A DNA stretch of 64,000 bases from Watersipora subatra (taxonomy: Eukaryota): contig NC_088716.1 in assembly GCF_963576615.1 (NCBI RefSeq), forward strand, positions 43,431,910 through 43,495,909. Reading direction: 5' to 3'. Position 1 is the stretch's first letter. Each line of letters opens with the position of its first letter. A model generated the notes under the pieces. That model had not been told where the DNA came from. It did not search any database and worked only from the letters and a program-made list of their open reading frames with translations. Positions 11,612 to 41,698 of this stretch are shown piece by piece. Both the position numbers and the translations under genes were made by a program.

Positions 11612-11644
<33 letters not shown>

Positions 11645-16990: not shown

Positions 16991-17092
16991 ATATTGATGT
17001 GACTTGTTTAAACCCTAAACTAAAGCAGTCTTAAACTCCACTTTTCCAAAAGGTTTTTTCTCTGTATTTTGTCTTTTCACACGTAAACAAGT

Positions 17093-20135: not shown

Positions 20136-23100
20136 CTGCAGATAAAATCTAAAATTACTTATACGTATCTATTTTCAAACTTGGTATTTTTCAGAGGTAG
20201 AATTTTTTACAATTATAATTTGCAACACTAGTTGCTTATGAGCTATTCAAAGTACTTTTTGTTATCATATTAATAAATATTTTATATAAAAACTTTTGAA
20301 AAAAAAACTATAATATTTCCAATATATGAATAAGCATTAACCATCTTTTTTGTGTTATCAATTGTATAATCAGGTGAATGACAGTTTTGAATTTTTCTGA
20401 TCTAAATTATACTTGGCTCTGTCAGATCTTTCCAAATTTTATGAAATAAAAAATTAAGTAGTAAACAAAAAATCGTATTACATAAAATAAAGGCTTTTAT
20501 TAGCACAAATCTTACTGACAGGACAAAACCAAATATCTTGTTTTAGGTTTTATTTATTTATTATTTATTATCAAGAACTGACTATGAAGTTCAATTTATC
20601 ATACAAGCAGGTATGCATAAGCTTAGCAGAAAACTGTCAGTAATCATTAAAATATTATCTCTTTTAGTGCAAATATATTTTTGTTCAATTAAAAAAGTAA
20701 TAGAAGAGAACATTTCTTACAGGCTCACTTTTATGAATTTATAAGTAGATTTAGAACTGAACTCTTCTGTTATTTGCCAAGTACTACAAAGTAAGTTAAT
20801 CTGATCTTGTTTCACTTTTATGTACTCGCTTGTAGTCTTACGAATAACTCTTTATTTACCTACCACAAGGAAGTAAAATAAAATAGATTTTATATCCATA
20901 CTTTTAAAATAGCTTTGCGGTAGAATTACAGCTAAACTTGATGTCTACAATGTCATTGAGGTAAAACATATAACAAATTATAAAGTTAGATCCAAGTTTT
21001 TTAGCTGCTCGCTAGTGCATTGTGAATAACCTGCAGGGAAGTCAAGATACAAAGCTACAATCTTTCTCATCTTTTCTGATTAAGAAATTGTGTCAACTAA
21101 AATGTTGTTTACGTTTCTATCCACTACCTATTGACGTTGAGTAACTTCAAAATATAATTTCAAACTACTCCAATTTTGCTGTTTATTCATAAAACCTGGA
21201 TTATCTCTGTTTTAACACAGACTAGTTCACTATATACTTTCCTATATATATATAGGAGTAAAAGATTCTTGTTTGTACCATTAGGAACTAAAACATTCTT
21301 TATGTAAATCAACGGCATTCTGAAACACCATTGAACATCCAAATGCCAAACACTATAAAACATTGGAAAATTGGATGTTCAACCTTTAGTTCAGTGATAA
21401 CTATAAAAGTAAAGTAATTTTCGCAAATTTTATAAGCCCTGACAGGCTAAAGCAAAAACTTTAGATGACTTTGATACACAGAACAGCCAAGCCATACATA
21501 GAGTACAAATCACACAGCTTTACAGTACAATACATAGCAGCTCCGCCATGCGACATTCATTGGCTCTCGAGTTGGCATCAGAAAGCGAAAATTTCATATA
21601 GTGTGGTATAAAAACTTCAGTAACATTCTAATGCAAACACTTCCTGGTAAGAAAACATCAAAATTGTATATACATATCATGCTTATTAAAAATTAGTAAC
21701 AAAATAGTATATTAACGCTAATAACAATAGTTAACTTATAGTTAACCTAGTAACTCTAAAGGTGTTGAAATGATAATCACCATCTTACTTATTTCTTTTG
21801 CATCATTATCAGACTTAAAACCCATGGCTAATGAATTAAATCTATATATGTAGTTATATAATTAAATATGTATAATAAATTAAAGTCCAGTGAATATTAT
21901 ATTAAACGATAAGATGCTCAATAAACTTTCACTTTCGCTTACTTTTCACAAATTTACGCCAATATCAAGCATCTGTGAAACACAAAAAATGCTAAACTGA
22001 GCAAACATCGTATCATTGTGGAAGAGATTTTGGCAAATAGCATACTGGCATTTTTGTTATTCCGACACATTCAACTCACCAACTGCCAATTCTGAATTTT
22101 GAAATAATTTTTTGTTAATATCCCATGGCACAAAAATGTTGTACGGTGGGAACAAAAAAAACATTGTGTTACACCGTAAGTTGAAAAACTGTATAACAGG
22201 AACATTTTAACTTGGAAGTGTAGGGCCTACTGTATAACAAACTCTGTATCAAACCACAAAAGCTGTACTCATCTTTCTATTATTGCTACGCCGTTAGCAT
22301 TAATAAACCAACATATTGTGACTTTTGTACAACTTTTTGCTATGGTATATTAGCAAACAATTATTGAATTGACAGAGGGACTTTTTAATTATGAAAAATA
22401 AGAGAAGGCAACTCCTATAACAAACACTTATTCCTATTTAACACATTAAAATTTTGACATATATTGGAGAATACAAAAATTATGAAAAAAATTATACTTT
22501 GAACTTTTTTCAGCTAAACTACAATATAACTTCATATTGACTGATGTATGTTTTGTTTAACTTATAGAAAAATTTTCATCAAAATTTGTTCCCTCTCTGC
22601 TGCATGTATAGCAATTTATTTCGAACTAGATTTATCCTGATACTAAATATACTATGACCATCTGTGCATGGGATTTGGCATGGGGGCTATGGTGGCTGGA
22701 CGCCCTTCTTAACACCTTAGATTGTTTTTATGTGACCTGTTCAACTGACATACTGATTATATGCCAGTGTACAAACCCTCGAACCACTACTACTCTGTGG
22801 TTCGGTGGTAAGTGCACCAGCATATATTGGGCACTATTTCAAGTTTATGTAGAGGTTAGCATTATCAAAAATTGAAGTGTTGTGAGTTGTTTCCTATCTA
22901 ACCTAAGTCTTTATCAAAAATAAATTTTTGATAAAGTTGTAAAGTTGTAAACATTCTACATCACCAACTATTTTTCTGTTAAGGAATTTCTAAAATTTCA
23001 TTTACTAATCTATTTTTGTATGGTCATATCTAAAAGATATTTCATGCAATAATGATTTTTCATAATCTAAAATATACAACCAAGAAGAAAAATTATCCTA

Positions 23101-24709: not shown

Positions 24710-24905
24710 CATCTCTCTGTAGGCCATTATAGTATCTCACTCCCTTTATACAATAGTTATATTCCAGGTCGATTTGAATATAAGGAGAATAATCATCTCT
24801 GGTAGAAGAAAGGTTGCTGTCTGCTTCATCATTGATGATTCCATCAACAGCGTGCCAGCTGTGGTAGCATGACTCCGAATTACATGGATTCTGTAATGAC
24901 ATCCT
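24710..24905 (-). pseudogene. orphan exon-5 copy of the lectin family with intact frame and donor, but no conserved acceptor and no neighbouring exons
   Basis: Encodes [69 protein letters not shown] then gtaagt; upstream replaced by (CA)n/(CATG)n. Confidence 0.6.
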
Positions 24906-25200
24906 CACTTGCTTAATTGAAGTTTAAATGTAAAATTACGCACACGTACCCATACACACATACATACGCACATACACACAAACCCACATACACACATACA
25001 TACACACACATACACACATCTACACATACCTACACGCACACACGCACACACGCACACACACTCACACACGCACACACGCACGCACACACATTACATGCAT
25101 ACATGCATACATGAATGCATGAATACATGTATGCATACACGCATACACGCATGCATGCATGCATGCATGCATGCATGTATGCATGCATACATGTTGCGTT
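24905..25200. repeat. compound (CA)n / (CATA)n / (CATG)n microsatellite
   Basis: direct reading. Confidence 0.9.
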
Positions 25201-26371
25201 CGTAAGTATACATGTTTTATTAACATGCGGTTATTCAGCTTTTTACCAACATTCATCATAGTTCATTTTATTCATGATGTTTGAAATTTTGATGTGTTAC
25301 TTGCAGATGATGATTGCAGGTAAAACTGATGTCAGATTAACGACATTGAGTTGCTCTAACTGATACTTAAATGTAAAGGAGACAATTCCCAATTGATATC
25401 AGCTTTTTTAATTCGTTCCATTCACCATACATGGCTGACTATGAAGTTCACTAATTAAAGTATATATAAGCTTAGCAAAAAATTATCAGTGATCATTAAA
25501 ATGTATGCTCTTTTGCTACAAATATATTCTTGTTCAGTTAGAGCAGTATTATAAGAAAGAACATTTCCTACAAACTCATTTTCATAAATGTATAAGTGAA
25601 ATTAAAACTTAACTCTTTGGTATTTGCCATGCACTACAAAGTAAGTTAATTTGATCTTGTTTCACTTTTATGTACTTGCTTGCAGTCTTACAAATGATTC
25701 TTTATTTACCTGACAGAATAAAGGGAAATAAAATAGCTTTTATATTCATACTTTCAAAGTAGTTTTGCAGTAGAATTACGGCTAAAGTTGATGTCAACAA
25801 TGTCATTGATTTAAAATATATAAGAAATTAATAAAGCTAGAACCAAGTTTTATAGCTGCTCGCTAGTTCATTGTGAATAACCTTCAGGGAATTCAAGATA
25901 CAAAGCTGCTATATCTCTCATTTTATTTTTCTGATTGAGAAATTGTGTCAACTAAAATGTTGTTTTAGGTTTTTATCTGCTACCCATTAACGTTGAGTAG
26001 CTTCAAAATATAGTTTCAAACTGCTTCTAATTTTGCTGTTTATTCATAAATCCTTGATTATCTCTGTTTTAACACAGACTAGTTCACTATATACTTTTTG
26101 GATGATTATAGATGATCATTGGCATGAGGTGAATACTGTTACATGCAATCGTTCTTCTATCATGCAGAAGAGTGGCAGTAGTCAAGTTTTTAAAAATACA
26201 GATATAGATGCAATCAGATCCACATCATTGAGATGTTATCTAAACTGATTCATAGCCCTGTTCTACTCGTTTTGTAACAGTTAAGACTCATTCAGTGAAA
26301 AGAAAAAGCTAATAATCTTGTTAAGCTTTAAAGAAAGCTGAAGGCTTGAAGCTTAAGCTTGGAAAGATGGC

Positions 26372-26435
26372 TATAAAAGTCAGAGGATGTTCAGTGAAGT
26401 TATTCAGAAACATTTAGTAAGGAGTTGAGGAACAG
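26372..26435 (+). promoter_or_regulatory. TATA box (tataaaag, 26372-26379) and non-coding first exon of lectin gene A, with donor cag|gtaat at 26435/26436
   Basis: Block conserved with 30890-30953 upstream of gene B; contains a short uORF (atgttcagtgaag...tag). Confidence 0.55.
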
Positions 26436-26650
26436 GTAATTGTATAAATTATATATAGTATTCATCTTGCATATTATATAGTGACAGTCTTTATCAGCTC
26501 TACTAGTAACTCAGTAGTAGTTGTTTTTGTAGTTGTAAATTTCTGACGTATGATAGTTTTTATTGCAGTTCTAAATATTTAGAGATTTTGTACTATTTAC
26601 AGTCAATCTTCCAGCAGCATAATCACGTGGTTGAACAGCGAATAGACACA

Positions 26651-27907
26651 ATGTGTAGCAATATGAATGTTGCATTGATGCTGATGCTGGGTGCCGTTGT
26701 GTTAGACGCGTCTCACAATGCCAACACTATTGGTGATGTGTATAAAGCACCTTCTGGAGATGGATTCAGATGTGTGGGTAGGTACATTTTCCTATGAGTA
26801 GAATGTTCGCTCTGTATATTGTTAGTTAAAAGTTCTCTGTTCATACAACTTAGCCTCAAGTTTCAATTTGCAGATATAAACGAGTGTCAGTCCCCAGATG
26901 ACTACAGATGTCCAGCTAGGTCAACCTGTGTCAACACTGTAGGAGGTTACGACTGCAAGTGTATGAATGGATATACTATGGTTGATGGCAGATGTGTTCG
27001 TAAGTATACATGCTTTATAAGCACACATTGATTTAGTTTTCTGCCGACAATCTTCAGGGCTCAATTTTTTCATGGTGATTACGATTTTGATGGAGTGTTA
27101 CTTGCAGGTGATGCGAGAAATGGTGCTTCTAGCAGTGTTAACAGTCCATGCTGGAACAACAATGGAGGCTGTGGAAATCAACACTGTAAAGACACCGCAT
27201 GGGGAGTTGATTGCTCATGTGACCGCTTGGCATCATATGGTTCTACTGTTGCACGAGGTAGGTGCCATTGTATATGAAAGTGTGTACATGAATGACTGAA
27301 GACTTACAGAGCTGTGATTTGTTTGAGTTCATAATCGCAAAAAGTTTCCAGTTTTACAAGTTTTCAACTCACATTTTGCGTTTGGTTACAGGAAAGCAAG
27401 TAAGAATGTCATCACAGTATCCATGTAATTCGGAGTCGTGCTACCACAGCTGGTTTGCTGTTGATGGAATCATCAGTGATGAGGCTTACAGCAACCTTGC
27501 TTCTACCAGGGAGGAATATTCTCCTTATATTCAAATAGACCTGGAAGAAAGCTACTGTATAAAGGGAGTGAGATACTATAATGGCCTACAGAGAGATAGT
27601 AAGTTGATTTGTTACTTGTTACAAGCTTCTGCTATATTTATACAGTATCATAATCATGTTGATAAGTGTTCTTCTCTTTACAGCTGTGACTAGCATGAAT
27701 CTGCTGGTGAATGTCGGAGAGACGGAGTATGCCGCTAGCCGCTTTCCAGGTTCATCTGCTCAATGTATCTATTACCGAGGTCTTTCCTTTGAACAGAGAG
27801 TATTGACATGTACAAGTAGAGTATATGGAAGATATGTGAGAATCACCGATGTGGCAGCATCCAGTTCTCTAGCAGCTCGGGAGATAGTTGTGCTCAATTA
27901 TGAGTAG
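26651..27907 (+). CDS. lectin gene A: secreted signal peptide-cbEGF-EGF-F-type-lectin-like protein, ~278 aa. CDS join(26651..26777,26874..26999,27108..27257,27392..27598,27684..27907)
   Basis: All introns GT..AG and phase 1; exon frames agree with track ORFs 26588..26797, 26819.., 27095.., 27292.., 27656..27907; motifs DINECQSPDDYRCPARSTCVNTVGGYDCKCMNGY, SPCWNNNGGCGNQHC...DCSCD, AVDGI...YIQIDL...GRYVRITDV...REIVVLNYE. Confidence 0.8.
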
Positions 27908-28022
27908 TTTTATGATTTGTCCATTTTAAACTGTACTTGCTACATAAAGTTTTAGAAAATTTGATATTAGCTTTTTATTTTTTATAGTTTGTAATATTTT
28001 ATTTTGCTTATATTTTACTGTA

Positions 28023-28028
28023 AATAAA
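28023..28028 (+). promoter_or_regulatory. AATAAA polyadenylation signal ~115 bp after the gene A stop
   Basis: direct reading. Confidence 0.4.
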
Positions 28029-28139
28029 TGTCATTTTCATACATCTAATTTTATGCAAAGTTATTGAACACTAAGCTGCTCTTATTATCCCACTCCACTA
28101 ATTGGCAGTCACACAATACGTTTGGATTATTAGACCACG

Positions 28140-28430
28140 CTTAGTTATGAGAGACTAATTTAAGTTGATTATAAAAACTCTTACTTGGTTGTAAGAGGCT
28201 AGACTTGGCTGTAAGACACTTGACGTGGCTGTAAGACACTTGACGTGGCTGTAAGACACTTGACGTGGCTGTAAGACACTTGACGTGGCTGTAAGACACT
28301 TGACGTGGCTGTAAGACACTTGACGTGGCTGTAAGATGTTTGACGTGGCTGTAAGACACTTGACTTGGCTATAAGACACTTGACTTGGCTGTAAGATGTT
28401 TGACTTGAGATATTTACCTCAATTATAAAA
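28140..28430. repeat. 20-bp minisatellite (gacacttgacgtggctgtaa)n, ~12 units
   Basis: Positional equivalent of the 18700-19200 array in the neighbouring duplication unit, with a diverged unit. Confidence 0.9.
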
Positions 28431-29282
28431 GACTAGACTTGGTTAGCTGAGTAAAAATATTGTTTGTGTTTCATGCTCTCACATTTTGTTACAAAACTGC
28501 TGGTTGTTTAATGATCTCGTTGGTTCTAGTCCCGATGCAGTTTTACAGGTTAAAATATTTCTTACTCATTACAGAATTAGTATTCCTTCATGTCTTTTAA
28601 ACTGAATAAATAATCTCAGTAGTTTTTTTATTAGTCAATACGGAAACAGACAAAAATACTGCTTTAATTCGTCTCTTATCATCTATTTTAAGGAAGCGAC
28701 AAAAAAGTTTCAATTATTTTTTATGCTCCAAGAGTTCATGCTAGTGTGGTGGTGGACAATGACCAGACCCAAGACCAATGAAGCTCATTAGGATTAGACA
28801 ACCATACCAAGGCCAAAAGACTCACATTGCCCCTTCGACCTGTTAAGGACTTGGAAAAGCATGCCAGACAGAGGCCTGGAGTGGCCAAGCCTGCCTTAAA
28901 CCCAGCTGGAGGTACAGACAGTTGGTTGTTGGCTGGTAAGGACAATCAGGCTTACTAGCAAGCCGCAGATGATAGGCTAACCAATTGTTTAATTGGCATG
29001 CTAATAATTGTGAAATACAAGGAGCCCATCAAGAGGAGGTTGGAAGAGCATAAAAAAAATAATTTTATGCAGTTGTCTGCTGAGCATACATTCACTGTGA
29101 TTATTTATAAATTTGCACATACATATGTATTGCCTGAGATACTCATAGTGGTTTGAATTTTTGTGGAGCAGTAAAAGGTCACAGTGGATCCTTTACACTA
29201 GTCTCAGCTACAAGATATGGATCAACTATCAATAACCTATAATATTCCATAACTGTAGCAAGAATTAACTGTAGATTAAGTA

Positions 29283-29512
29283 CCAGTTTACCATCTCTCT
29301 GTAGACCATTATATTATCTCACTCTCTATATGCAGTAGTTATTTTCAAGGTCTATTTGAATATACAGAGAATATTCTTTTTTAGTATTGGAAGCAGGGTT
29401 GCTATATGCTTCATAACTGATGATTCCATTAACAGCATACCAGCTGTGGTAGCACAACTCCACATTTTTACATGGATTCTGTGATGACATTCTCGCTTGT
29501 TTACCTGCAGAA
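29283..29512 (-). pseudogene. inverted decayed exon-5 copy of the lectin family
   Basis: GKQARMSSQNPCKNVELCYHSWYAVNGI... with in-frame stops (YCI*). Confidence 0.7.
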
Positions 29513-30889
29513 AAAATCTAACATTACTTATACGTATGTATTTTCAAATTTTGCATTTTTCAGAGATAGAATTGCTTACAATTATAATTTGAAACACTAG
29601 TTGCTTATGAGCTATTCAAAGTACTTTTTGTTATCATATTAATACATATCTTATATAGAAACTATTAAAGAAAAACTGTAATATTTCCAATATATGAATG
29701 AGCATTAACCACTTTTTTGTGTTATCAATTGAAAAAGCAGATAATAGACAGTTTTGAATTTTTCGGATCTAAATTATACCTTGCTCTGTCAGATCTTTCC
29801 AAATTTTTATGAAATAAAAAAATTAAGTAAACAACAAATAATTGTATTACATAACATAAAGGCTTTTATTAGCACATATCTTACTGACTGGACAAAACCA
29901 AATATATTGTTTTAGGTTTTATTTATTTATTATTTATTATAAAGAACTGACTATGAAGTTCACTTAATCATAGAAGCAGGTAGGCATAAGCTTAGCAGAA
30001 GATTATCAGCAATCATTGAAATGTATGCTCTTTCTGTGCCAATATATTTTTGTTCAGTTAGAGCAGTAATATAGAAAAGAACATTTTCTACAAACTCATT
30101 TTCATGAATGTATAAGTGGAATTAGAACTTAACTCTTTAGGTATTTACCATGCACTACAAAGTAGGTTGATCTGAACTTGTTTCACTTTTATGTACTCGC
30201 TTGTAGTCTAACAAATAATTCTTTATTTACCTCGCACAATGAAATGAAATAAAATAGGTTTTATATCCATACTTTTAAAATAGCTTTGCAGTAGAACTAC
30301 AGCTAAACTTGATGTCTACAATATCATTGAAGTAAAACATATTGTGAAGTTAGAACCAAGTTTTATAGCTGCTCACTAGTGCATTGTAAATAACCTGCAC
30401 GGAAGTCAAGATACAAAGCTACATGTACAATCTTTCTCATCTTTTCTGATTCAGAAATTGTGTCAACTAAAATGTCGATTCACGTTTCCATCCACTACAT
30501 ATTGACGTTGAGTAACTTCAAAATATAATTTCAAATTGCTCAAATTTTGCTGTTTATTCATAAAACCTTGATTATATCTGTTTTACCACATCCTTCTTCA
30601 CTAAATACTTTCTTGGATGATTATAGATAATCATTGGCATGAAGTAAAATACTGTTACATGCAATCTTTCTGGCAGAGCTGGAGAGTTCAGTAGTACATG
30701 TACCATTCCAGACAATATAGATGTAGAGAGGATTAGATGGCCCCAGTGAGTTGTTATGTAGTCTAATTCATAACCCTGTTCTACATTCCTTGTAACAGTT
30801 AATTACCACTTAGTGAAAAGAAAAAGCTAATAATCTTCTCAAGCTGAAAAGAAAGCTGAAGGCTTGAAGCTTAAGCTTGAATAGATGGC

Positions 30890-30953
30890 TATAAAAGTCA
30901 GAAGATGTTCAGTGAAGTTATTCAGAAACATTTAGTAAGGAGTTGAGTAACAG
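30890..30953 (+). promoter_or_regulatory. TATA box (30890-30897) and non-coding first exon of lectin gene B, with donor cag|gtaagt at 30953/30954
   Basis: Near-identical to the gene A block; exon 2 acceptor at 31107/31108. Confidence 0.55.
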
Positions 30954-31150
30954 GTAAGTGTATAAATTATATACAGTATTCATCTTGCATATGCATGTGT
31001 ATTGATAGCCCTTGTCAGCGTATATAATAATTCAGTGTATGGTTGTGGTTATAATTAACTGACATTTGCTAGTTGTTATAGTAGTTTAAAATATGTTTTA
31101 TTTTACAGCGTACTACACACTCATTTGGTTTAAGAGGAAATTGATGCAAA

Positions 31151-32386
31151 ATGTTGGGTAAAATGAAAGTTTTACTGATGCTGTGTGCCATTGCATTGGT
31201 AAAATCTCGGGATGCTGACACTATTGGTGATGTATATAAGACACCTTCTGGAGATGGTTTCAGATGTGTGGGTAGGTACATTTTCCTATGAGTACAACAG
31301 GTGGTTTGCTACAAATATTTTGTTCTTATGCCCTTAGACTTATTTTTAACTTTTAGACATAAACGAGTGTCAGTCCCCAGATGACTACAGATGTCCAGCT
31401 AGGTCAACCTGTGTCAACACTGTAGGAGGTTACAACTGCAAGTGTATGAATGGATATACAATGGCTGATGGCAGATGTGTTCGTAAGTGCGCCGAGTTTT
31501 TCTATTTTCCTTTTTTTGATTTTACCATCGATATGTGTTATTCATCAGTCTTATTCAATTTATTCAATGATGGCTGCAATTTTTGAGTTTTATTCGCAGG
31601 TGATGTGGCAAATTATAGTGCTGGCAGTATTAACAGTCCGTGCTGGAACAACAATGGAGGCTGTGGAAATCGACACTGTAAAGACACTGCATGGAGAGTC
31701 GATTGCTCATGTGACCGCTTGACATCGTATGGCTCTACTGTTGCACGAGGTAGGTGCCATTGTATGTAAAAACGCGTACATGAACAACTGAAGACTCACA
31801 GAGCTGTGATTTGCTCATAACCGCGAAAAAATTTTAAGACGTTTTAACTCGCATTTTGCATTTGTTTACAGGAAAGCAAGTAAGAATGTCATCACAGTAT
31901 TCATGTAGATCGGAGTCATGCTACCACAGCTGGTACGCTGTTGATGGAATCATCAGTGATAAAGCAGACAGCAACCTTGCTTCTACCAGAAAAGAATATT
32001 CTCCTTATATTCAAATCAACCTGGAGGATAACTACTGTATAAAGGGAGTGAGATACTATAATGGTCTACAGAAAGATGGTGGGTTTATGTGTTACTTGTT
32101 ACTAGCGTCTGCTATAATTATACAGCAACATTATCATGTTGATAAGTGTTTTTCTTTAACAGCTGTGACTAGCATGAACCTGCTGGTGAATGTCGGCGAA
32201 ACGGAGTATGACGCTAGCAGCTCACCAGGTTCATCTGCTCAATGTGTCTACTACCGAGGTCCTTCCTTTGAACAGATATTGCTGACATGTAGAAGTAGGG
32301 TATATGGAAGATATGTGAGAATCACTGATGTAGCGGCATCCAACTCCCTGTCTGCTCGTGAGATAGTCGTGCTCAACTATGAGTAG
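31151..32386 (+). CDS. lectin gene B. CDS join(31151..31271,31357..31482,31600..31749,31872..32078,32163..32386)
   Basis: Same exon sizes and phases as gene A (126, 150, 207, 224 bp for exons 3-6); intron 5 is 84 bp with no stop, which explains the track ORF 31856..32386 reading through it. Confidence 0.8.
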
Positions 32387-32999
32387 TTTTATGCTTAGTT
32401 TATTTTACGGTATTTTCTTGGAACAGAATATTTTAAAATAGTTTTTATAGAGTTCATATCTTTTTTAATTTTCATTGTTTTATATTGTTTTTGACAAGAG
32501 AATTATTTTAATACAATTTATGATCGAGCATTGCAATTTTTTTGTACTTTTATAAAATTAATTAGTGTTTCCCTATCATCAAAAGTTTGCCACAGTAGCC
32601 TAACCACGGTTCTCACAAAATAATTGGACCACTACTAAGGTGTTGCTTGGTCAGAAGAAACTAACCAGCTAGAATTTTTACTGTAAATATATATATAGAA
32701 TTACCCACATGACCAGAACAATATTTCACGATATTTTGCATAACATAACTGTTAGTTACAATGTCTCTAGCATTGCAAAACGACAGAAATTAGACCTTCA
32801 CTTGCTTTGGCCATTAATTTAATGACCCAAGATTGCAATTAGTAACTATCAAAACTAATTTTAATAGCTATACTTTGAATAGAATATTTTGATATGATAG
32901 AATACATTAAATAGCTTTTTTAATAAAAAAAACTTTGATATATATATCTATCTCAAAAATTTTCGTCTGTCGTCGTTGTTTGTTAAGATATCTTTCAGT

Positions 33000-33100
33000 C
33001 AGTCTATAGCTATTAAAATCTTAGAACTTAAATTCCACTCTGTCGGATTCAAATTAAGGTTTAAAATCTCGCGCTTCACCACTGAGCTATACAAATGTTG
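33000..33100 (-). mobile_element. tRNA-derived SINE-like element (family 1), minus orientation
   Basis: Reverse complement reads gtatagctcagtggtgaagcgcgagattttaaacc...tttgaatccgacagagtgg. Confidence 0.35.
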
Positions 33101-33404
33101 ACTTGCAATAAAATTCACATTACAGTTATTTGGTATCAAAACGTTTGTTCTACTCTGCTGTGATGTAGGTGCAAAATATGTGGAAATGTGATTACGTGAT
33201 TACAAGCTTTTAAAAACTCAAAAATAAACAGTTAATAGCAACCAACACGAACGGCCGTAGGTCGAAATCCCTCTCCAAAAGGGCTAAAATTGGACGTAGT
33301 TGAAAATGATCCACTTCTGTTTACACAATATATAAACTGTAATATTTTATACTATTGTAATAAAATGTAATGTATTCGCAAATATACTTTACGCATTCAA
33401 TAAA

Positions 33405-33600
33405 ACCATGTGTACTACTGTATAAAAGGAATGAGATACTATAGTTGTCTACAGAGAGATGGTAAGCTGGTACATAACCTATACTAGTGATTCAGTCGTA
33501 AATGTCGGAGAGACGAAATAAGAGGCCGGCAGCCCTCCTGGTTCCTTTGCTCGCGTTTCCACTGCAGAAGTGCTGCCTTTGAGTGAGCATAACGTATTGA
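33405..33600 (+). pseudogene. collapsed fragment of lectin exons 5-6 with the intron largely deleted
   Basis: ...IKGMRYYSCLQRDG + gtaagctgg... + ...VNVGETK...; stops present. Confidence 0.5.
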
Positions 33601-35121
33601 TAAATGTGCAAATATTAATTTTGCAGCATCTACATGTAATTCTCTGGCAGCCATAATATAGGTATTCTTAGCCGAGTGTATGTTAAATTGTTCATTGCGC
33701 TTGTATGTCTACATCACACTCACCTGCATTACAGTATAATGATTTGCAGAATTTATAGTTTATAGAGTTTTAGTGCTTTCTATAATTTGTTGCAATCATT
33801 TGCTAACTCCACCAGCTATTTTGCTATTTTGGTTCATCCTAATATCTGATTGTTGTCACAATATTGTTGGCAATATAGACTGAAGCCCAATTTCAATGTT
33901 TCAAACAACCACAAATTTGAATTGCCGAATTGTGCAACTAATAATGGCAATGTACAACCTTCCCATTTTCAACTGTAGTAGATGTAAGGTTTTATTAAGC
34001 ATCAGTCAAGTTTATTTCAAAGTTGCAATATATTGTAAACTTGATAGTTTTGTAGTTACAGATAAAATTCAATTTTCTTTTAATAAGTATCAGTGCGGCA
34101 TGTTTTGCTTGGTTTTTGAAAGAGTGCTGAGTGTGGGCAAACGCTGAACGTGCAAGCAAAATTTTGTTGGTCCTTTGCTGGTGCATCTGATTTTCATTTA
34201 CCAGCATACTCGAGTTTCCTATTTTACATATAAAAGATGGTTGTTCATACCTTAAGAATGTGGTAGCAATCGTCAACAAGATGTGTAATTAAGTTTCGTA
34301 TATTACCTCTAGTTAAAATTACCACATCGTTTTTGGAATGTTTGTTAATATTTTTCTTGCGCAGTTCGATCAAATGTCTGCATCAACTTCTAAGAATAAA
34401 TTATATCGACCAATCACAAGTAGGCGTTTTTATGGCTCATTCTGACTGATTAATATCGTGAAATATTCTGATCGATTAATATGTTCGTTTCTTTACTTAA
34501 TAGTACGTGTCAGTACAATTTCATATTGCTGTCAAACAAATACATGTATGTTATTTTTTCATTTTAAATGGTATATTTGAAATGCAGAACTGCTGACCAT
34601 GGATAAGCTTTAATTCTTTCAAAAACTGCTCTGCACACTGACTAACACGTCTTTCATACTTTTAAGTATATCACGTTGGGATTAAATTACTTTTTTAAAG
34701 TGATTGGAAGTGTTTTCCTACTTGTTGTTCCCTTAAAGAATGTTCAGTTAAAACTAGAAATTTATATTTATTGTTGTTCATCTACCTTAGCAGCCGTGAC
34801 TTCACGATATCACTTTGCATTATTTCTATATTTGGTATGTTATGGTCAGCTTCTGTATTTACAGATATCAATAAATGCCTGGCTTCTTATGATAGCAGCT
34901 GCTCATGTGTGTCCGATCTACTGTTGACCCAAAAGCACCGATTTCAAAGGTATATCTAGTAGAACACACATACTGTTAAATATGCAATAAATTTGTTTGT
35001 ATTGTTTATTAGAAAGCTGATAAAGTAATGAAACTCGTTAAAAACAGGTCTTTAAAATCTCAGTTAAAAAGGCAAATTATGATAATACAAATTTAAGGTG
35101 TTAAAGTAAATCTACACATTT

Positions 35122-36902
35122 CTACACATAGACAAGCACAAGAATCTCACGAGCTGCCAGAGAGTAGGATGCTGCCACATCAGTGATCCTAACATAGCTA
35201 CCATATACCCTGCTAGTACAGCTCAGTAATCTCTGTTCAAAGGCAGCACCTCTGTAGTAGACACATTGAGCGGATGAGTCAGGATGGCTGCCAGCCTCCT
35301 CTTCAGTTTCTCCAACATTCACGAGCAGGTTAACTCTATAGACAGCTGCAAACAAGTATAAGCAATGTTTATTTAATACACATCTTGACATGATACTTCA
35401 ATAGACTTGACATGATACTTCAATAGATTGTTGTCCAGTTTTGATTCTATTTTATACCTCGCCCAATGCCATTGTAGTATTTCACTCCTTTAACGCAGTA
35501 GCTCTCTTCGAGATCAATCTGGAGATATGGAGAGTACTCTACTAGTGTCGAGGCCAAGTTGCCACCGGCTTCGGTATCAATCACTCCATCAACAGCATAT
35601 GAGCCGTGATAACACAACTCCGGTGTGCAAGGAAACTGTGAGGACATCTTAACTCGTTTCCCTGAATTAGAAGTTTTTAATATCAGCAACTTTTTTAATG
35701 GGTTCAATTTATTACAATGCATATCAGCACATTGCAACACTGTTTTAGCTAAGTCATGCTTTTTAACTCTTAGAGTTTGTGAATCAATACCCTTAAACGT
35801 AAAGTACAGCACAAACCTAACCTTGGGCAATATGCGAGTCATATGATGTCAAGCGATCACAAGAGCAGTCAACTCCCGTATCCGTGTCTTCACAGTGTTT
35901 ATTACCACATCCACCATTGTTTCCAGCTAAACATGAATTTTCACCTAAAATATACAGAAAGAGTATTTTGTATTACAAGCTGGAATAGTAACATTGCTTG
36001 CACGCCAAATTTTCTAGTGAGCCCTGGATGCTAGATTCAAGTATAATTATAGGTCAGTCCGCAATATTATGAGAAGACAACTCCATTGAATACTTACTAA
36101 TACAAGTGCCATCCACCATTGTATAGCCATCCATGCACTTGCAGTTGTAACCTCCTACAGTGTTGACACAGGTAGACCTACTTGGGCAGCTGTTTCCATA
36201 AGGAGTCAGGCATTCGTTGATATCTGTCAATACACAAGACAAGCAAACATCCAATGTATTACATTCTAAGAAAAAACTGAAAAACTTAAATTGATATTAA
36301 AGTGATATGGTGAAATCAGGACTGCTAAAGTGAATGAACAGCAACAAATATGACACTTGTTAGTTCTACTTAACTACTTTGTATACAAAATGATAATCTT
36401 TTAAGTCACTTTTCAAGCGAGTTTCTAGAACCGTTGGTTTAGTATTTACCACAGGAAACAGAAACCCATTCTTTTAATTTTCGGGACTTGGGTGACTGCC
36501 TCAAAAAAACATCGTTCAAATCGGAGTAGGTCACAGCTCTTTGCGCAAAGTAACTCGAGTATGGTTCACTTACCCATGCTAGACTAGCGGTATATTCTAA
36601 AGGACCAGAATGCTTTCTCCTCACACATATCAAGCTAGCTAGCAGCTATCAAGCTATCAAGCTAGAGTTTCCTGCAGCAAACAGACTTGTTACTTACCTA
36701 CACACTGGGATGTTGGACCCGGAGCACGAGGTGGCTCTGCAATTCTAGTTTCTTCTCTTGTAGGACGCGGAGCACGAGGTGGCTCTGCAATTCTAGTTTC
36801 TTTTCTTGTAGGACGTGGAGCAAAAGGTGGCTCAGTCATTCTCCTAGTTTCTTCTCTGTAGTGCTCAGCAAAGCATCCAGCAAAACCAAACAGCAATAGC
36901 AT
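35122..36902 (-). CDS. lectin gene D (minus strand), with an N-terminal Pro/Arg/Thr-rich tandem repeat. CDS complement join(36902..36698,36223..36098,35944..35822,35661..35458,35345..35122)
   Basis: Phase-1 introns throughout; frames agree with track ORFs 36690..36914(-), 36054..36254(-), 35447..35842(-), 35122..35391(-); exon 2 carries 3 x 48-bp repeat encoding (E/K)ETRIAEPPRAPRPTR. Confidence 0.75.
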
Positions 36903-37019
36903 CTTTAAAAACAATGATTAAAACCTTGAAGTGTGATCAATAATGAAGCACAAGTTGGTATATATCAAAATACATGCATTTTGCCAATTCTACCACATTC
37001 TTCCGGCTGATGTTCTTAC

Positions 37020-37188
37020 CTTTAACAGCGCTGCCATATTGTATGTCACTTCACTTCGTAGTAATTGAGAGCTGGGGTAAATATTCACTGCACACCTAAA
37101 GGAATGGTAGAACTTCTTATAATACACTTACAATCCTCAGTATGTAAGGATGGTTGCTCTTACCAACTCTATTAGCGCCTTATATACA
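37020..37188 (-). promoter_or_regulatory. putative TATA (ctgtatataagg, minus, 37181-37188) and 5' exon of gene D, with donor aaag|gtaaga at 37020/37019
   Basis: Unrelated to the A/B promoter block; contains atggcagcgctgttaaag, which would splice in frame onto the exon-2 ATG. Confidence 0.3.
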
Positions 37189-38029
37189 GTAAAGGGTGCA
37201 AATAAGCTCTCCGCTTTGTCTATTCTACCAAAAGAAGCTTTCTATTGTTTCTACTCAGCTACAGAGCAAGCTGAGTTTAGCATCTAATAATTTTAGTACA
37301 TTAGAAATTACAAAAAGCTAAGTCATTAAAATCAACTCATTGCCACTTTTGTAATTGAAACGAAACATATGCGCATCAAGTTTGAAAGAAGACTGCCAAA
37401 AAATGTAGAAGCGCATAGCATTCATGCGGACTGACAGTCAGACACACACACAAACATGAGGACATGCACACACACGCATATGTATGCAGGCTTGCATGCA
37501 CACGTACATGCGTGTGTAAATGTGTGAGGGCACACTGATGGCCTCAATTTTCAATATGATGGAAATATTGTATGTTCAATCACTTGTTTTATCGACGCTT
37601 GTAAACAGTGAAAGTTACCTCTAACTTTTAGCTCGAGACTTTCCTGCCTCGTCGAGGTTTGTTCTAGCTTTATTGACCCCCTATTGTCTTTTCAGATAAA
37701 AGGTGTTGTTAAGCTCTCAGGCTAAAGTCTCAGGCTTCCATTTACTGAACTCAGATTACTGCCTGATTTGCCCTTTAACAATCGATGATATACCCAGTCA
37801 ATTTGATGAAGTTAGAGGCTAATCTTGCAGGAATAATTATCAACTGAAATTAACACTGAAAATGATAAAATGCATCAGTGGTTAATTTATATATACAAAT
37901 TGAAGTGTTTATCATGTCTAGTTAAAAGTAATTAGTTAAAACATGCATGGTTGCACGATTGCAGTTCAGTACACTGTGAGAGATCATGTCATGTAATACT
38001 TCTATGTGCAAATATTTTTATGCATGACA

Positions 38030-38195
38030 AGGTGGCTGCATGGTTTAGTGGTAGTGTGCCAGGTAGGTGTGCATGCATATGTGCATCTGCATGCATGGGT
38101 TTTATTCCTGAGAGACGCAGTCTTTTTTCCTAACTCCCTTAGCTGTCTTCGGACAAATACGGTTCTTATTATAGCAAAGATTAAAATATCAGCTG
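38030..38195 (+). mobile_element. tRNA-derived SINE-like element (family 2)
   Basis: tggtttagtggtag...gggttttattcctg head; tail cttagc..ggacaaa..cttattatagcaaagatt shared with 63805-63975. Confidence 0.4.
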
Positions 38196-39509
38196 AAGTT
38201 ACTAGCTTAAGTTACTAGCTTCAGTTACTAGCTTAAGTTACTCAAATTCATTGAGTGAAGAAACTTAGCCAAATGCAACTACACAACCTGCTTATACAAC
38301 TATACAAATGCTTATACAAATGCAACTACACAACCTGCCTATGTTTGTAATTTATTTCAAATCTTGAGCGAATGCGTAGCATAAGTATTAAGAAATGTTT
38401 TTCAAAAATCTGTTTTAGGCATGTCTCTAGCTTTTGAGTATTTGAATTATGCATTGGCCAGACACACACAGAAATAAACAACTGCCTTTATTTGAAAGAT
38501 AGAAATGATAAATGTTGTGTACGTTGATTAAAACTAAATTTTTTTAAATAACAAGAAAAAATCATAGTCATTGACAGGTTTACTGTTAGTAAACATTAAA
38601 AAGGTTTTTGTCGTAGCAGAAAATGCAGTTATACGAATTTTAATTTCAACACAACAACCTACAATATATAGGCCTACTTTATATATAGCATTTATGTTTC
38701 CAAGTTAGATTAGTGCAGTTCAACCATGCTGGATTCTTTTGGGCACAAACGTTCAAAACAAGCTACTTCAAATTACTTTGGAAGAAGTATATTACAAACA
38801 TGAAAGCTCTATCACAAAATCAGGCATCTGAGCAATCCCTTGAAGATGGAGTAAGTCTTGTTAACTTACTACAACCAGAGGCTGCGTGTTTTTAAGAGCC
38901 ATTGTTGCACAAGCATTGGATCGGTGATCTTGGCTTGATATGTCTGTTCTAGTGACAAGGAAACCTCGATGACTGGGGACATACTCAGTTGCAGTGAGGT
39001 TGGATTTCATTCCTGTGATCCTCAGTGGCCTTTTTTGGCGATTGAACCTCAAGCACTAGTTTTCACCAGTACATACTTACACCAAAAAACTTACACGTGC
39101 AAGTTGAATGTTAAAGGGTTTCTACTATCTCACTGAACTAAACTTGAAATTTCTAGAGAGTTTATTTTGAAAAATAGTTTTATCAGAGCGGACTGACCTA
39201 GTTATATATGTCAAGCACCAAGCGTTCAAGGGGTTTAGCTAACCAATGCTATATGGAATTATGTTTACACAAAACACTTCAAACCTAAATCTGCATTCAT
39301 CTTTTCAGTTTACCATAAGCATGAACAAACCTTACCTATAATAAGAAATCATGCCTTTACAACTAAACTGATCTAAATCTTTTCCAATCCTCTTTCTCTT
39401 CGCGTCCATAGCTAACGGCTCAATAAGGCAGCTAGAGGATACACAAGATAAGCTCCTTAATGGCATGGAAAAGCGTCTGGCTTTTCAGTGTTCCATTAAC
39501 TGGTTCACT

Positions 39510-39592
39510 ATAAATGAGTCTGAGACTAAAAGGATAAGTCATTCAGGATTTGTACCAATTACAGAGGAGTACAGAGTATAGAAAAAAGTTTG
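39510..39592 (+). promoter_or_regulatory. putative TATA (tataaatg, 39510-39517) and non-coding first exon of lectin gene C, with donor ttg|gtaagc at 39592/39593
   Basis: Exon-2 acceptor ttttgcag at 39678; sequence differs from the A/B promoter. Confidence 0.35.
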
Positions 39593-39687
39593 GTAAGCGT
39601 ACATGTATGATGTAGAGGATGGTAGCAAAGCTTAATAGTGAAAACCTATTTCATTTGGTGGGTAACTTTGTTTTGCAGAATTGCAAG

Positions 39688-40971
39688 ATGTTGAAAGGCA
39701 GGGAAGTGAGTTTAGCAGTTATGCTGGCAATAACTGTTTTGGTGAGCTCCCAAGAAACGGACACTGACGGTCATGTCTATCAGCCACCCTCTGGAGCTGG
39801 TTTTCGATGCGTTGGTAAGTTTCAAAACCATACGCTATAGGAAAGTATATGTAGCTGGCAAAATGGCTGCGCTGATGAAAGTTATTTTTTGTAGACATAA
39901 ACGAGTGTCAGTCCCCAGATGATTACAGATGTCCAGCTAGGTCAACCTGTGTCAACACTGTAGGAGGCTACGACTGCAAGTGTATAAATGGATATACTAT
40001 GGTTGATGGCAGCTGTGTTCGTGAGTGGCTTTCAGTTTTTCAAGCTCTCAGTATTTGTAGTTTACGTTGATATTTGTTGCTGGTGTTCTAAAGTGTAGTT
40101 AAGTTAATGTAAGTATTGGTTTTATACTACTTATTACTAATTTTATTTCAAACAATTGTTTTAAAAATTATACCATACCAAGAATCCTAAAGTTTTGCAA
40201 ATTGATGTCACTGGGTAAACTTGTAGCTCGAGCTGGTAATCTTGATAATATTGGTCCATGTTGGAACAACAATGGCGGTTGTGGAAACAGGAAATGCAGA
40301 GACACAACGTATGGAGTTGACTGCTCATGCGATGGGTTCGCATCATATGGATCCACTATTGCTCGAGGTCAGAAGCTTATCTTGCTCTTTCATTAATCTC
40401 GGATGTTAAATATCAAAGTAGAACATCTAAATATTTTTTTTCTCTGCAGGTAAGCAAGTAAGAATGTCATCACAGTATCCATGCAATTCGGAGTCGTGCT
40501 ACCACAGCTGGTACGCTGTTGATGGAATCATCAGTGATGACGCCTACAGCAACCTTGCTTCTACTAGAGAAGAATACTCTCCTTATATTCAAATAGACCT
40601 GGAAGATAGCTACTGTATAAAGGGAGTGAGATACTATAATGGCCTACAGAGAGATGGTGAGTTGATAATTAATTTGATAATTAATCTGGGCTACTATTTG
40701 CCAATGATATGAAGTACCATAGGCATGCTTATAAACGCTCTTTACAGCTGTGACTAGCATGAACCTGCTAGTGAATGTTGGTGAGACGGAGTATGACGCT
40801 AGCAGCTCACCAGGTTCATCTGCTCAATGTGTCTACTACCGAGGTCCTTCCTTTGAACAGAGGGTATTGACCTGTACAAATGGAGCCTATGGTAGATATG
40901 TGAGAATCACTGATGTGGCAGCATCTAATTCTATGGCAGCCCGTGAAATAGTCGTGCTCAACTATGAGTAA
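39688..40971 (+). CDS. lectin gene C. CDS join(39688..39814,39895..40020,40227..40367,40450..40656,40748..40971)
   Basis: Frames verified against track ORFs 39619.., 40202.., 40464.., 40750..40971; exon 4 donor is the weaker gtcaga. Confidence 0.78.
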
Positions 40972-41153
40972 AGATTCTGAATGTTTTATTTACTGTATTA
41001 GTTGATTGCAATATCTTATGTGCTTTTTATGTGCTTTTTACTTTCCAGTTAGCGTTTTGTATGAATTTTAATGGTTTTTAATGCATCACAAGTGAGTTTA
41101 ATTTCTAATTAGTAATTTATATGTCTAGTAAAATTGTTCTCAATTTTTATTCA

Positions 41154-41159
41154 AATAAA
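41154..41159 (+). promoter_or_regulatory. AATAAA polyadenylation signal ~180 bp after the gene C stop
   Basis: direct reading. Confidence 0.4.
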
Positions 41160-41698
41160 TTTTAAATATCTTGAAATAACTTACTGCCTTGTGTTTCAAG
41201 AATGCTACAACAAGAATACATTTCTGTAGCCCTTTTACGGTACTTCAACGGAAGGCAAGTATTTACCCATAGCACAAGAAGTGAGTTGAGGGTATCCATG
41301 ATTAAAAATTAACTAAAAATTTTTGAAGTACATGCTGGGAGTTTATTCAAGTTGCGAATACACCTGGTGATCAACTAATTAAATATAAAGTTGTCTACTC
41401 CTTACTAAAACAAAACCAGCAGTATAAAAGCCCTTCCACTACCTTCAGACAGTTACAGTACATGTTACAGCAAGAATATTGCTGCATCTGAATCAATTTG
41501 TGTTTTTTGAGTGTATATTGTATTTTAACATCGAAGCAGTATAAAATTAACATGCAATAATAACATGTAGCTAAAAATTTCAGCCCACACTGTTTATATT
41601 AGCTTGCAGCTTCTTCCTCAGCATTATCTCCATCGATAGTTCAATTTATGTAGCTGATGTGGAAGGTTAGCAAGTAGCCTCGCCGTCTTGTTAAAATG

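What the first reader, a model, noticed from the sequence alone, without database searches (positions are those of the whole stretch)
26280..41160. Tandem cluster of secreted EGF-EGF-F-type-lectin-like genes, four intact copies
Four paralogues share an identical 5-coding-exon plan: A 26651-27907 (+), B 31151-32386 (+), D 36902-35122 (-), C 39688-40971 (+). The plan is signal peptide, calcium-binding EGF (DINEC...CxNxxGGYxCxCxxGY), a second EGF, then a ~140-aa domain split over two exons. That domain aligns motif-for-motif by eye with the F-type lectin fold: AVDG ~ AIDGN, YIQIDL ~ WWRVDL, LLVNVG ~ INIG, GRYVRI ~ GRYVV, REIVVLNY ~ LCEVEVN. All introns are phase 1 and exon lengths are conserved (126 / 141-150 / 204-207 / 224), so the exons are shuffle-compatible modules. 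Copy D is inverted relative to the others. Such compact, recently amplified clusters are typical of lineage-specific secreted recognition or immune-type lectins.
Basis: partly seen in the sequence, partly recalled or inferred. Interest (0 to 1): 0.75.

Follow-up and report, generated by a model that had tools for sequence, protein, structure and literature searches.

The report
Secreted EGF plus F-type-lectin-fold gene cluster
An invertebrate-type genome segment carries four intact, tandemly duplicated genes for small secreted proteins made of two EGF modules and a divergent F-type-lectin-fold domain that has lost the usual fucose-binding residues: a real gene family, but an ordinary kind of lineage-specific expansion.

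Summary
All introns are GT-AG and phase 1, and all reading frames are intact (274-293 aa). Each protein has a hydrophobic N-terminus, a calcium-binding EGF (Pfam EGF_CA above threshold), a 5-cysteine EGF-like module and a ~143-aa C-terminal domain.

- A profile of its own subfamily hits the solved F-type lectins first (3CQO 2e-25, 1K12 6e-13).

The defining fucose site is gone in all four copies: His52 to Ser, Arg79 to Gly, Arg86 to Thr/Tyr, and the Cys-Cys bridge to Arg-Asp. Canonical fucose binding is therefore unlikely and the ligand is unknown.

The genes are under purifying selection (dN/dS about 0.2). In an independent metagenome contig, copy D's exons differ only synonymously.

It starts near 17 kb, holds at least six dead exon relics, and dS ranges from 0.29 (A-B) to about 1.4 (D versus the rest). 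The closest annotated relatives are uncharacterised bryozoan (Watersipora) proteins. I rate it a new member of a known kind, of modest interest.

The parts
26651..27907 (+). Gene A, 277 aa. Exons 26651-26777 (signal peptide plus a vestigial EGF tail), 26874-26999 (calcium-binding EGF), 27108-27257 (5-Cys EGF-like module), 27392-27598 and 27684-27907 (F-type-lectin-fold domain, then stop).
   Evidence: GT-AG phase-1 introns and an intact ORF. Pfam EGF_CA 4.6e-10; PF22633 1.4e-4, below cut-off. AATAAA lies 116 nt after the stop.
31151..32386 (+). Gene B, 275 aa. Exons 31151-31271, 31357-31482, 31600-31749, 31872-32078, 32163-32386.
   Evidence: Pfam results. AlphaFold model of its C-terminal domain has pLDDT 93.9. 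Its unit 29947-32490 is 80% identical to 25435-28009.
35122..36902 (-). Gene D, 293 aa, inverted. Exons 36902-36698 (signal peptide plus three 16-aa Pro/Arg/Thr-rich repeats), 36223-36098, 35944-35822, 35661-35458, 35345-35122.
   Evidence: A 48-bp x3.1 tandem repeat lies at 36711-36861. In the independent contig L001, exons 2-5 differ at 5 of 632 nt, all synonymous, against 2.1% in introns and 6.1% downstream.
39688..40971 (+). Gene C, 274 aa. Exons 39688-39814, 39895-40020, 40227-40367, 40450-40656, 40748-40971. It lies head-to-head with D, with 2.8 kb between the two start codons.
   Evidence: Pfam results.
17085..17612 (+). Pseudogene relic of exons 4 and 5, with stop codons and frameshifts. 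The 5' exons are missing and a 51-bp x11 tandem repeat (16427-17000) lies directly upstream.
   Evidence: tblastn; translations; Tandem Repeats Finder.
19936..20136 (-). Isolated inverted exon-4 relic with a stop codon.
   Evidence: It lies inside the duplicated block 19206-21241, which matches 28615-30612 at 85%.
24711..24914 (-). Isolated inverted exon-4 relic, 85% aa identity to A. The ORF is still open, but it has no partner exons. It lies 1.7 kb upstream of gene A.
29293..29505 (-). Isolated inverted exon-4 relic with two stop codons, 1.6 kb upstream of gene B.
33416..33554 (+). Fragment joining the 3' end of exon 4 to the 5' end of exon 5, with a stop codon and most of the intron deleted.
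34764..34908 (+). Decayed copy of D's intron-1 end and exon-2 start ('TDINKCLASYDSSC'), inverted relative to D.
   Evidence: and blastn (81-83% identity to 36351-36180).

Best explanation
**What it is.** This is a lineage-specific cluster of four functional paralogous genes plus at least six dead exon fragments. It lies in an AT-rich, short-intron animal genome. The closest annotated relatives are bryozoan.

**The proteins.** Each gene encodes a small soluble secreted mosaic protein with these parts, in order:
- a signal peptide;
- a short N-terminal stretch that is the vestige of an EGF C-terminal hairpin and carries one orphan cysteine;
- one calcium-binding EGF;
- one truncated EGF-like module with 5 cysteines;

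**How the cluster formed.** It grew by tandem duplication of a unit of about 4.5-4.8 kb. Each unit held an inverted exon-4 relic plus a gene. One older copy (D) is inverted. The copies have been kept under purifying selection.

**Proposed mechanism (inferred, not shown).**
- The FTLD binds a target through the loops at the open end of the barrel.
- The calcium-stiffened EGF pair acts as a stalk or protein-interaction arm.
- The odd number of cysteines (17 in every mature paralogue) would allow a disulfide-linked dimer, giving bivalent bridging or agglutination.

**What the ligand is not.** All three basic residues and the vicinal disulfide that hold fucose in canonical F-type lectins are replaced. 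The ligand is therefore most likely not fucose bound in the canonical way. It is either a different glycan or a non-glycan surface molecule.

**Shown versus inferred.** Shown: the gene structures, the domain family and fold, the loss of the fucose triad, the selective constraint and the duplication architecture. Inferred: secretion, dimerisation, ligand binding and biological role.
For: **Gene models.** All introns are GT-AG and phase 1, and all ORFs are intact.

**Constraint.**
- Exons are consistently better conserved than introns in all six pairwise comparisons.
- Between A and B, exons 2-5 have no gap columns.
- dN/dS is 0.18-0.32 overall and 0.12-0.20 in the FTLD.
- In the independent ENA contig L001, D's exons have 5 of 632 differences, all synonymous. 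Introns differ by 2.1% and downstream DNA by 6.1%.

**EGF and secretion.**
- EGF_CA scores 36-41 bits against a cut-off of 27 in all four copies.
- The only strongly hydrophobic segment is N-terminal.

**FTLD homology.**
- A profile of B, C and D found 91 proteins at E<=1e-3 among 1.84 billion.
- Every larger hit I scanned is a strong PF22633/PF00754 member.
- P0008 carries the canonical 'CFHT...NRLDCCDKR' motif.
- A profile made only of the window copies and their closest relatives hits 3CQO at 2e-25, 1K12 at 6.4e-13, 3LE0 at 3e-12 and 2J1R at 8e-8. The best discoidin hit, neuropilin, is at 2.5e-7.

**Fold.** The AlphaFold model has pLDDT 93.9 and pTM 0.89.
- Foldseek's best match is 1K12, TM 0.80.

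**Binding site.** In alignment A5, His52 becomes Ser, Arg79 becomes Gly, Arg86 becomes Thr or Tyr, and Cys82-Cys83 becomes Arg-Asp. The 26-residue spacing is kept.

**Duplication.** The repeated units are mapped.
Against: - There is no transcript evidence. The spliced proteins are not in the 15-billion-protein collection, and a full-length search found no homologue.
- Direct evidence for the domain family from the window sequences alone is weak. Pfam PF22633 gives 18.7-25.7 bits against a cut-off of 27.8. A four-paralogue profile found no lectin in the PDB. A window-only versus PDB-FTLD profile comparison gave only E 0.003 and 10.6% probability.
- The firm assignment therefore rests on intermediate sequences.
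- The AlphaFold model was built from an alignment that itself contains canonical FTLDs, so its resemblance to 1K12 is not fully independent.
- Signal peptides were judged by hydropathy only, and D's hydrophobic core is just 12 residues.
- Nothing here shows binding to any ligand.
Confidence: 0.8

Rival explanations
1. They are ordinary fucose-binding F-type lectins (fucolectins). They would act as secreted pattern-recognition molecules that bind fucosylated glycans through the canonical His/Arg/Arg site.
For: - The fold and family are those of F-type lectins.
- Part of the cation motif (A-V-D-G) is kept.
- Close relatives from metagenomes keep 'IAHT' His and 'WNR' Arg at the right positions.
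- Tandem expansions of FTLs are known in molluscs, hemichordates and amphioxus (PMC5712786).
Against: - In all four paralogues His52, Arg79 and Arg86 are replaced by Ser, Gly and Thr/Tyr. The Cys82-Cys83 bridge that contacts fucose is replaced by Arg-Asp.
- The review notes that such deviations suggest different specificity or loss of sugar recognition (PMC5712786).
Confidence: 0.1
2. They work like MFG-E8/lactadherin or EDIL3. These are secreted EGF-plus-jellyroll bridging proteins whose C-terminal domain binds a membrane lipid or a protein rather than a sugar, while the EGF part engages a cell-surface receptor.
For: - The order of modules is the same: signal peptide, EGF modules, then a C-terminal galactose-binding-like beta-sandwich.
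- There are weak PF00754 hits.
- Discoidin domains (neuropilin, factor V/VIII, lactadherin) appear further down both the sequence and fold hit lists.
- Factor V C2 lost the basic triad and binds phospholipid (PMC5712786).
Against: - None of the four protein sequences shown contains an RGD motif.
- No lipid-binding hydrophobic spikes could be assessed.
Confidence: 0.2
3. The copies are decaying or unexpressed duplicates, or the exon models are artefacts. On this view the cluster has no present function.
For: - The region is littered with dead fragments of the same gene.
- There is no transcript evidence.
- Gene B has no AATAAA or ATTAAA within 500 nt after its stop.
Against: - Four complete ORFs with every splice site intact.
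- dN/dS of 0.12-0.32 at dS up to about 1.4.
- No indels in exons 2-5 although every intron has them.
- Only synonymous differences in D's exons in an independent sample.
Confidence: 0.05

Closest known systems
F-type lectins: Anguilla anguilla agglutinin (PDB 1K12), striped bass MsaFBP32 (3CQO), and the streptococcal FTLDs (3LE0, 2J1R)
   Same: - The sequences align in register over the whole domain: AVDG~AIDG, PYIQIDL~PWWRVDL, NVG~NIG, GRYVRI~GRYV, REIVV~CEVEV.
- The cysteine pair equivalent to AAA Cys108-Cys124 appears to be conserved.
   Different: - The His/Arg/Arg fucose triad and the vicinal Cys-Cys bridge are all replaced.
- The Cys50-Cys146 pair is absent.
- There is an extra N-terminal C-x4-C hairpin motif and a 'YCI' cysteine.
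- The domain is fused to two EGF modules rather than standing alone or in FTLD tandems.
Uncharacterised proteins of the bryozoan Watersipora subatra (XP_067947203, XP_067949520, XP_067949440), and unnamed exon-sized ORFs from ENA and Logan assemblies
   Same: - These are the closest relatives found, at 30-54% identity.
- They share 'SPW/YIQ(I/L)DL', '(H/Y)CI' and 'LR.REIEV'.
- The many short ORFs break off at model positions 63-68, where intron 4 lies here (position 69). This suggests a conserved intron position.
   Different: - The Watersipora models are about 110-150-aa single domains with no EGF part annotated.
- Many of the metagenomic relatives keep the His and the first Arg that the window copies have lost.
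Deviant FTLDs: Drosophila CG9095 and Crassostrea gigas FTL isoforms 3 and 7-10. Mosaic FTLD proteins, such as the Nematostella CCP/EGF-like/FTLD protein (PMC5712786).
   Same: There is precedent both for FTLDs that lack the basic triad and for FTLDs combined with EGF-like modules.
   Different: Those are large multidomain or membrane proteins, or FTLD-only bindins. The compact arrangement of signal peptide, calcium-binding EGF, EGF-like module and FTLD is not described in the two reviews I read.
MFG-E8/lactadherin and EDIL3 (EGF repeats followed by F5/8 type C discoidin domains)
   Same: The architectural logic is the same: N-terminal EGF modules and a C-terminal domain of the galactose-binding-like superfamily in a small secreted protein.
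   Different: - The domain subfamily differs (discoidin versus FTLD).
- There is no RGD motif and only one C-terminal domain.
- The resemblance is by analogy only.

Membership tests
F-type lectin (FTL/FTLD) family | F-type beta-jellyroll fold | tested here: met
   [not shown]
F-type lectin (FTL/FTLD) family | Sequence homology to established FTLDs | tested here: met
   The subfamily profile A4 hits 3CQO at 2e-25, 1K12 at 6.4e-13 and 3LE0 at 3e-12. The window-only profile reaches FTLD-type proteins at 1e-17 to 1e-11 in 1.84 billion proteins. Direct tests are weak: Pfam PF22633 is below its cut-off and hhalign gives E 0.003.
F-type lectin (FTL/FTLD) family | Fucose-binding motif HX24RXDX4(R/K): His52, Arg79 and Arg86 of AAA, plus the Cys82-Cys83 bridge | tested here: not met
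   In alignment A5, His becomes Ser, Arg79 becomes Gly, Arg86 becomes Thr (Tyr in D) and Cys-Cys becomes Arg-Asp in all four copies. The spacing is preserved. The motif definition is from PMC5712786.
F-type lectin (FTL/FTLD) family | Cation-binding motif h2DGx (two small hydrophobic residues, Asp, Gly, then a small hydrophilic residue) | tested here: inconclusive
   A-V-D-G is present in all four copies, but the x position is Ile or Val instead of Asn, Asp or Ser. AAA Asn35 and Asn40 are also not conserved.
F-type lectin (FTL/FTLD) family | Binding of L-fucose or fucosylated glycans | not testable with these tools
   This needs recombinant protein and a glycan array or haemagglutination inhibition.
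Calcium-binding EGF (Pfam PF07645) | Score above the curated cut-off, and the consensus D-x-(D/N)-E-C ... C-x-N-x4-(Y/F)-x-C-x-C with six cysteines | tested here: met
   Scores are 40.0, 39.5, 36.4 and 40.6 bits against a cut-off of 27. 'DINEC...CVNTVGGY(D/N)CKC' is found only in the four genes.
EGF-like domain (second module) | Six-cysteine EGF pattern, or a Pfam hit above cut-off | tested here: not met
   Exon 3 encodes only five cysteines (C-x6-C-x4-C-x8-C-x-C). The next cysteine is 23 residues away, in exon 4. FXa_inhibition scores 22-28 bits against a cut-off of 33.4 and covers only positions 1-24 of 36. It is EGF-like but truncated or atypical.
F5/8 type C discoidin domain (Pfam PF00754) | Score above the curated cut-off, or closest structural neighbours being discoidin domains | tested here: not met
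   [not shown]
Secreted protein | N-terminal signal peptide and no other membrane anchor | tested here: inconclusive
   A, B and C have their only strongly hydrophobic 15-residue windows at residues 1-9. D has a 12-residue hydrophobic start. There is no C-terminal hydrophobic tail. No dedicated signal-peptide predictor was available.

The most novel reading that the evidence does not exclude
The window copies may belong to a previously undescribed, widely expanded FTLD subfamily. Its marks are an N-terminal 'KMSSQ-x2-C-x4-C' hairpin and a '(Y/H)CI' cysteine, and it is present in bryozoan-like hosts and many metagenome-borne eukaryotic contigs. Within that subfamily, this cluster would have been re-tooled to a new, non-fucose ligand after losing the basic triad. 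The inverted exon-4 relic kept 1.6-1.7 kb upstream of tandem genes A and B might additionally give antisense or hairpin RNA that regulates the family.
Probability: 0.12. Interest if true: 0.45.

Novelty: new member of a known kind. Interest (0 to 1): 0.25.

Why it matters
If the models are expressed, this adds a compact EGF-EGF-FTLD architecture to the already very plastic F-type lectin family. It would also add a probably bryozoan-related lineage that the two F-type lectin reviews I read do not mention. It gives a natural series of four paralogues in which the fold is kept but the fucose site is rebuilt. That series is useful for asking what FTLDs bind once the His/Arg/Arg triad is gone. It does not challenge any current view. 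Tandem, lineage-specific expansions of secreted lectin-like genes with phase-1 shuffled exons are a well-known pattern in invertebrate genomes.

Tried and rejected
1. A full-length search with protein A against 5.8 billion proteins gave no hit at E<=1e-3.
2. A four-paralogue profile against PDB sequences gave only a spurious TPR hit.
3. The first AlphaFold run, with three sequences, had pLDDT 38 and was unusable.
4. Exact look-ups of the four spliced proteins and three read-through ORFs found nothing in the collection, so I have no transcript evidence.
5. The Watersipora locus could not be fetched. The Logan contig L002 shows the relative's domain as a single open frame with no EGF nearby in 1.4 kb.
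6. The JGI metagenome scan found no relative.
7. The AFDB Foldseek library was unavailable.
8. The sample accession ERZ6864376 appears in no held paper. No paper links F-type lectins with bryozoans. The Bishnoi 2015 survey is not held.
9. I looked for a lost gene in the 'empty' repeat unit 21241-24633 and found no trace.
10. I considered the idea that A and B are parts of one larger gene and rejected it. Each has its own start codon, hydrophobic leader and stop codon.
11. I did not determine the organism.

Full report
**Checking the observation**

The window is AT-rich (27-42% G+C in 2-kb windows). In the flagged region, short coding blocks are separated by GT...AG introns of 80-474 nt. I rebuilt gene A by hand and then located every copy with tblastn. 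I anchored the exon ends of B, C and D on exact peptide matches and splice signals.

All four models close as intact reading frames of 277, 275, 274 and 293 aa. Every intron is GT-AG and phase 1. Exon 2 is 126 nt and exon 5 is 224 nt in all copies. Exon 4 is 207 nt (204 in D). The quoted motifs are all present.

**Evidence that these are real, constrained genes**

- In all six pairwise comparisons each exon is more conserved than the introns beside it. For A against C, for example, exon 2 is 96% identical and its flanking introns 54% and 42%.
- Between A and B, exons 2-5 have no gap columns while every intron has indels.
- Nei-Gojobori estimates give dN/dS of 0.18-0.32 over the whole CDS and 0.12-0.20 in the C-terminal domain.
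- dS is 0.29 (A-B), about 0.52-0.54 (A-C and B-C) and 1.3-1.5 (D against the others).
- Independent support came from the protein library. One hit (P0001) is the exact exon-4 ORF of copy D, carried on a 3.3-kb ENA metagenome contig (ERZ6864376; L001).
- L001 is 93% identical to window 36178-33414. Across it, D's exons differ at 5 of 632 positions, all synonymous. Introns differ by 2.1% with 23 gap columns, and downstream DNA by 6.1%.
- I could obtain no transcript evidence. The spliced proteins are not in the 15-billion-protein collection.

**Extent and structure of the cluster**

tblastn and six-frame reading show additional pieces:
- a dead exon 4+5 copy at 17085-17612 (+);
- isolated inverted exon-4 relics at 19936-20136, 24711-24914 and 29293-29505 (-);
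- a fused exon 4/5 scrap at 33416-33554 (+);
- a decayed intron-1/exon-2 piece at 34764-34908 (+).

EGF exons occur only in the four intact genes.

Self-comparison shows a repeat unit of about 4.5-4.8 kb, consisting of an inverted exon-4 relic, a spacer and a gene. Block 25435-28009 matches 29947-32490 at 80%. Block 19206-21241 matches 28615-30612 at 85%. One unit (21241-24633) has lost all trace of its gene. D and C lie head to head, 2.8 kb apart.

**What the proteins are**

Pfam puts the first module above threshold as a calcium-binding EGF in all four copies (36-41 bits, cut-off 27).

The last residues of exon 1 ('SGDGFRCV') align with the C-terminal hairpin of a preceding EGF in uromodulin and NELL (weak cEGF hit). 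Exon 1 therefore ends in a vestigial EGF tail with one orphan cysteine.

Exon 3 encodes an EGF-like 'C...NNGGC...C...C.C' pattern, but with five cysteines. It has only sub-threshold, partial Pfam matches.

The only strongly hydrophobic segment is N-terminal, and there is no C-terminal anchor. This fits secretion. Every mature paralogue has 17 cysteines.

D's exon 1 additionally carries three 16-aa Pro/Arg/Thr-rich repeats, encoded by a 48-bp tandem repeat.

**The C-terminal domain**

Taken alone, the window sequences give only consistent sub-threshold hits, though these span the whole PF22633 model (18.7-25.7 bits, cut-off 27.8). A, B and C also hit PF00754 weakly. A four-paralogue profile finds no relative in the PDB.

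A profile of B, C and D searched against 1.84 billion representative proteins found 91 proteins at E<=1e-3. They fall into two groups.

1. **A close subfamily.**
   - Its members are exon-sized ORFs from ENA and Logan assemblies, and uncharacterised proteins of the bryozoan Watersipora subatra.
   - They share 'KMSSQ..C-x4-C', 'AVDGIY', 'SPWIQIDL' and '(H/Y)CI'.
   - The short ORFs break off where intron 4 lies here.
2. **Classical multidomain proteins.** The ones I scanned are strong PF22633/PF00754 members, from Saccoglossus, Ruditapes and unnamed sources. P0008 carries the canonical 'CFHT...NRLDCCDKR' signature.

A profile restricted to the close subfamily hits the solved F-type lectins first. 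FBP32 (3CQO) scores 2e-25, eel agglutinin (1K12) 6.4e-13, lectinolysin (3LE0) 3e-12 and SpX-1 (2J1R) 8e-8. Neuropilin and factor V discoidin domains follow at 2.5e-7 and weaker.

A direct window-only comparison against PDB FTLDs is weak (E 0.003, probability 10.6%). It covers 115 columns in the same register.

I conclude that the domain is a remote but genuine FTLD.

**Membership detail**

The review by Vasta et al. (PMC5712786) defines the family by three features: the F-type fold, the fucose motif HX24RXDX4(R/K) and the cation motif h2DGx.

In alignment A5 the positions of AAA His52, Arg79 and Arg86 are Ser, Gly and Thr (Tyr in D) in the window proteins. The fucose-contacting Cys82-Cys83 bridge is Arg-Asp. 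The 26-residue spacing is preserved, so these are substitutions and not misalignment.

A-V-D-G is kept but is followed by Ile or Val. Several relatives keep the His and the first Arg, and P0052 keeps all three basic residues. The loss therefore appears specific to this branch.

The same review records other FTLDs without the triad (Drosophila CG9095 and some oyster isoforms). It also records an FTLD combined with EGF-like modules in Nematostella. Neither feature is without precedent.

**How it most likely works**

- Shown: four constrained genes for modular proteins whose FTLD fold is intact but whose canonical sugar site is rebuilt.
- Inferred: the proteins are secreted. The calcium-binding EGF pair forms a stiff stalk or interaction arm. 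The FTLD loop face binds a target that is probably not fucose in the canonical mode. The unpaired cysteine may give covalent dimers, and so bivalent bridging.
- The main functional rival is an MFG-E8/EDIL3-like, non-lectin bridging role. I cannot exclude it.
- Canonical fucolectin activity and pseudogene status are both unlikely, for the reasons given above.

**Comparison, novelty and verdict**

Tandem, lineage-specific expansions of secreted lectin-like genes built from phase-1 exons are a familiar pattern. FTLD expansions in particular are documented in molluscs, hemichordates and cephalochordates (PMC5712786).

What is mildly new:
- the compact architecture of signal peptide, calcium-binding EGF, EGF-like module and FTLD;
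- the apparent bryozoan-related affinity, since bryozoans are not mentioned in either review I read;
- a subfamily with its own cysteine pattern.

I rate it a new member of a known kind, with an interest score of about 0.25. Its 'lectin', 'recent' and 'immune-type' labels go beyond the evidence.

Noticed in passing
window 24711-24914 (-) with 27392-27598 (+); 29293-29505 (-) with 31872-32078 (+): The tandem units of A and B each keep an inverted exon-4 relic 1.6-1.7 kb upstream of the gene's start codon. This forms a 212-226-bp inverted repeat, 82-90% identical, with the functional exon 4 about 2.4-2.5 kb away. If co-transcribed it could give antisense or hairpin RNA. I did not test this.
   Followed up: partly
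window 26874-26999, 31357-31482, 39895-40020: Exon 2 (calcium-binding EGF) is 94-97% identical at the DNA level among A, B and C. Its flanking introns are only 42-66% identical. EGF-region dS between A and B (0.13) is well below that of the FTLD (0.35). Either constraint is very strong or gene conversion is confined to this exon.
   Followed up: partly
window 36711-36861 (-), within exon 1 of gene D: A 48-bp tandem repeat (3.1 copies) encodes three 16-aa Pro/Arg/Thr-rich units ('ETRIAEPPRAPRPTR.'). They lie between the signal peptide and the EGF of D only, as a copy-specific linker.
   Followed up: partly
L001 2738-3334 compared with window 33414 and 29280-29874: The ENA contig runs collinear with the window from D down to 33414. 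It then continues into sequence 92% identical to window 29280-29874, a full inverted exon-4 relic unit. The window has only a truncated scrap (33416-33554) at that point. This is a structural difference between individuals or haplotypes, or a deletion in the window.
   Followed up: partly
all four proteins: Each mature protein has 17 cysteines, an odd number. The orphans are probably the 'RCV' cysteine at the end of exon 1, the fifth cysteine of the EGF-like module, and the 'YCI' cysteine of the FTLD.
   Followed up: no
window 12806-14779 (+) and 11644-12603: A 657-aa open frame shows sequence motifs typical of a reverse transcriptase of a non-LTR retrotransposon (judged by eye; not scanned against a family library). 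A 259-bp x3.7 tandem repeat at 99% identity lies just upstream of it.
   Followed up: no
window 44394-44627 (-): An exon-sized ORF has a weak Death-domain match (PF00531, E 5e-4, just under cut-off). It suggests a neighbouring death-domain gene on the minus strand downstream of the cluster.
   Followed up: no
window 16427-17000: A 51-bp x11.3 tandem repeat abuts the 5' end of the dead exon 4+5 copy at 17085, where exons 1-3 should be.
   Followed up: no
window 2008-2280 (-): An ORF 'FNTTWVDSFAFT...CLKCNERF...' resembles, from memory, hAT/ZBED-type transposase-derived proteins. It has no Pfam hit.
   Followed up: no
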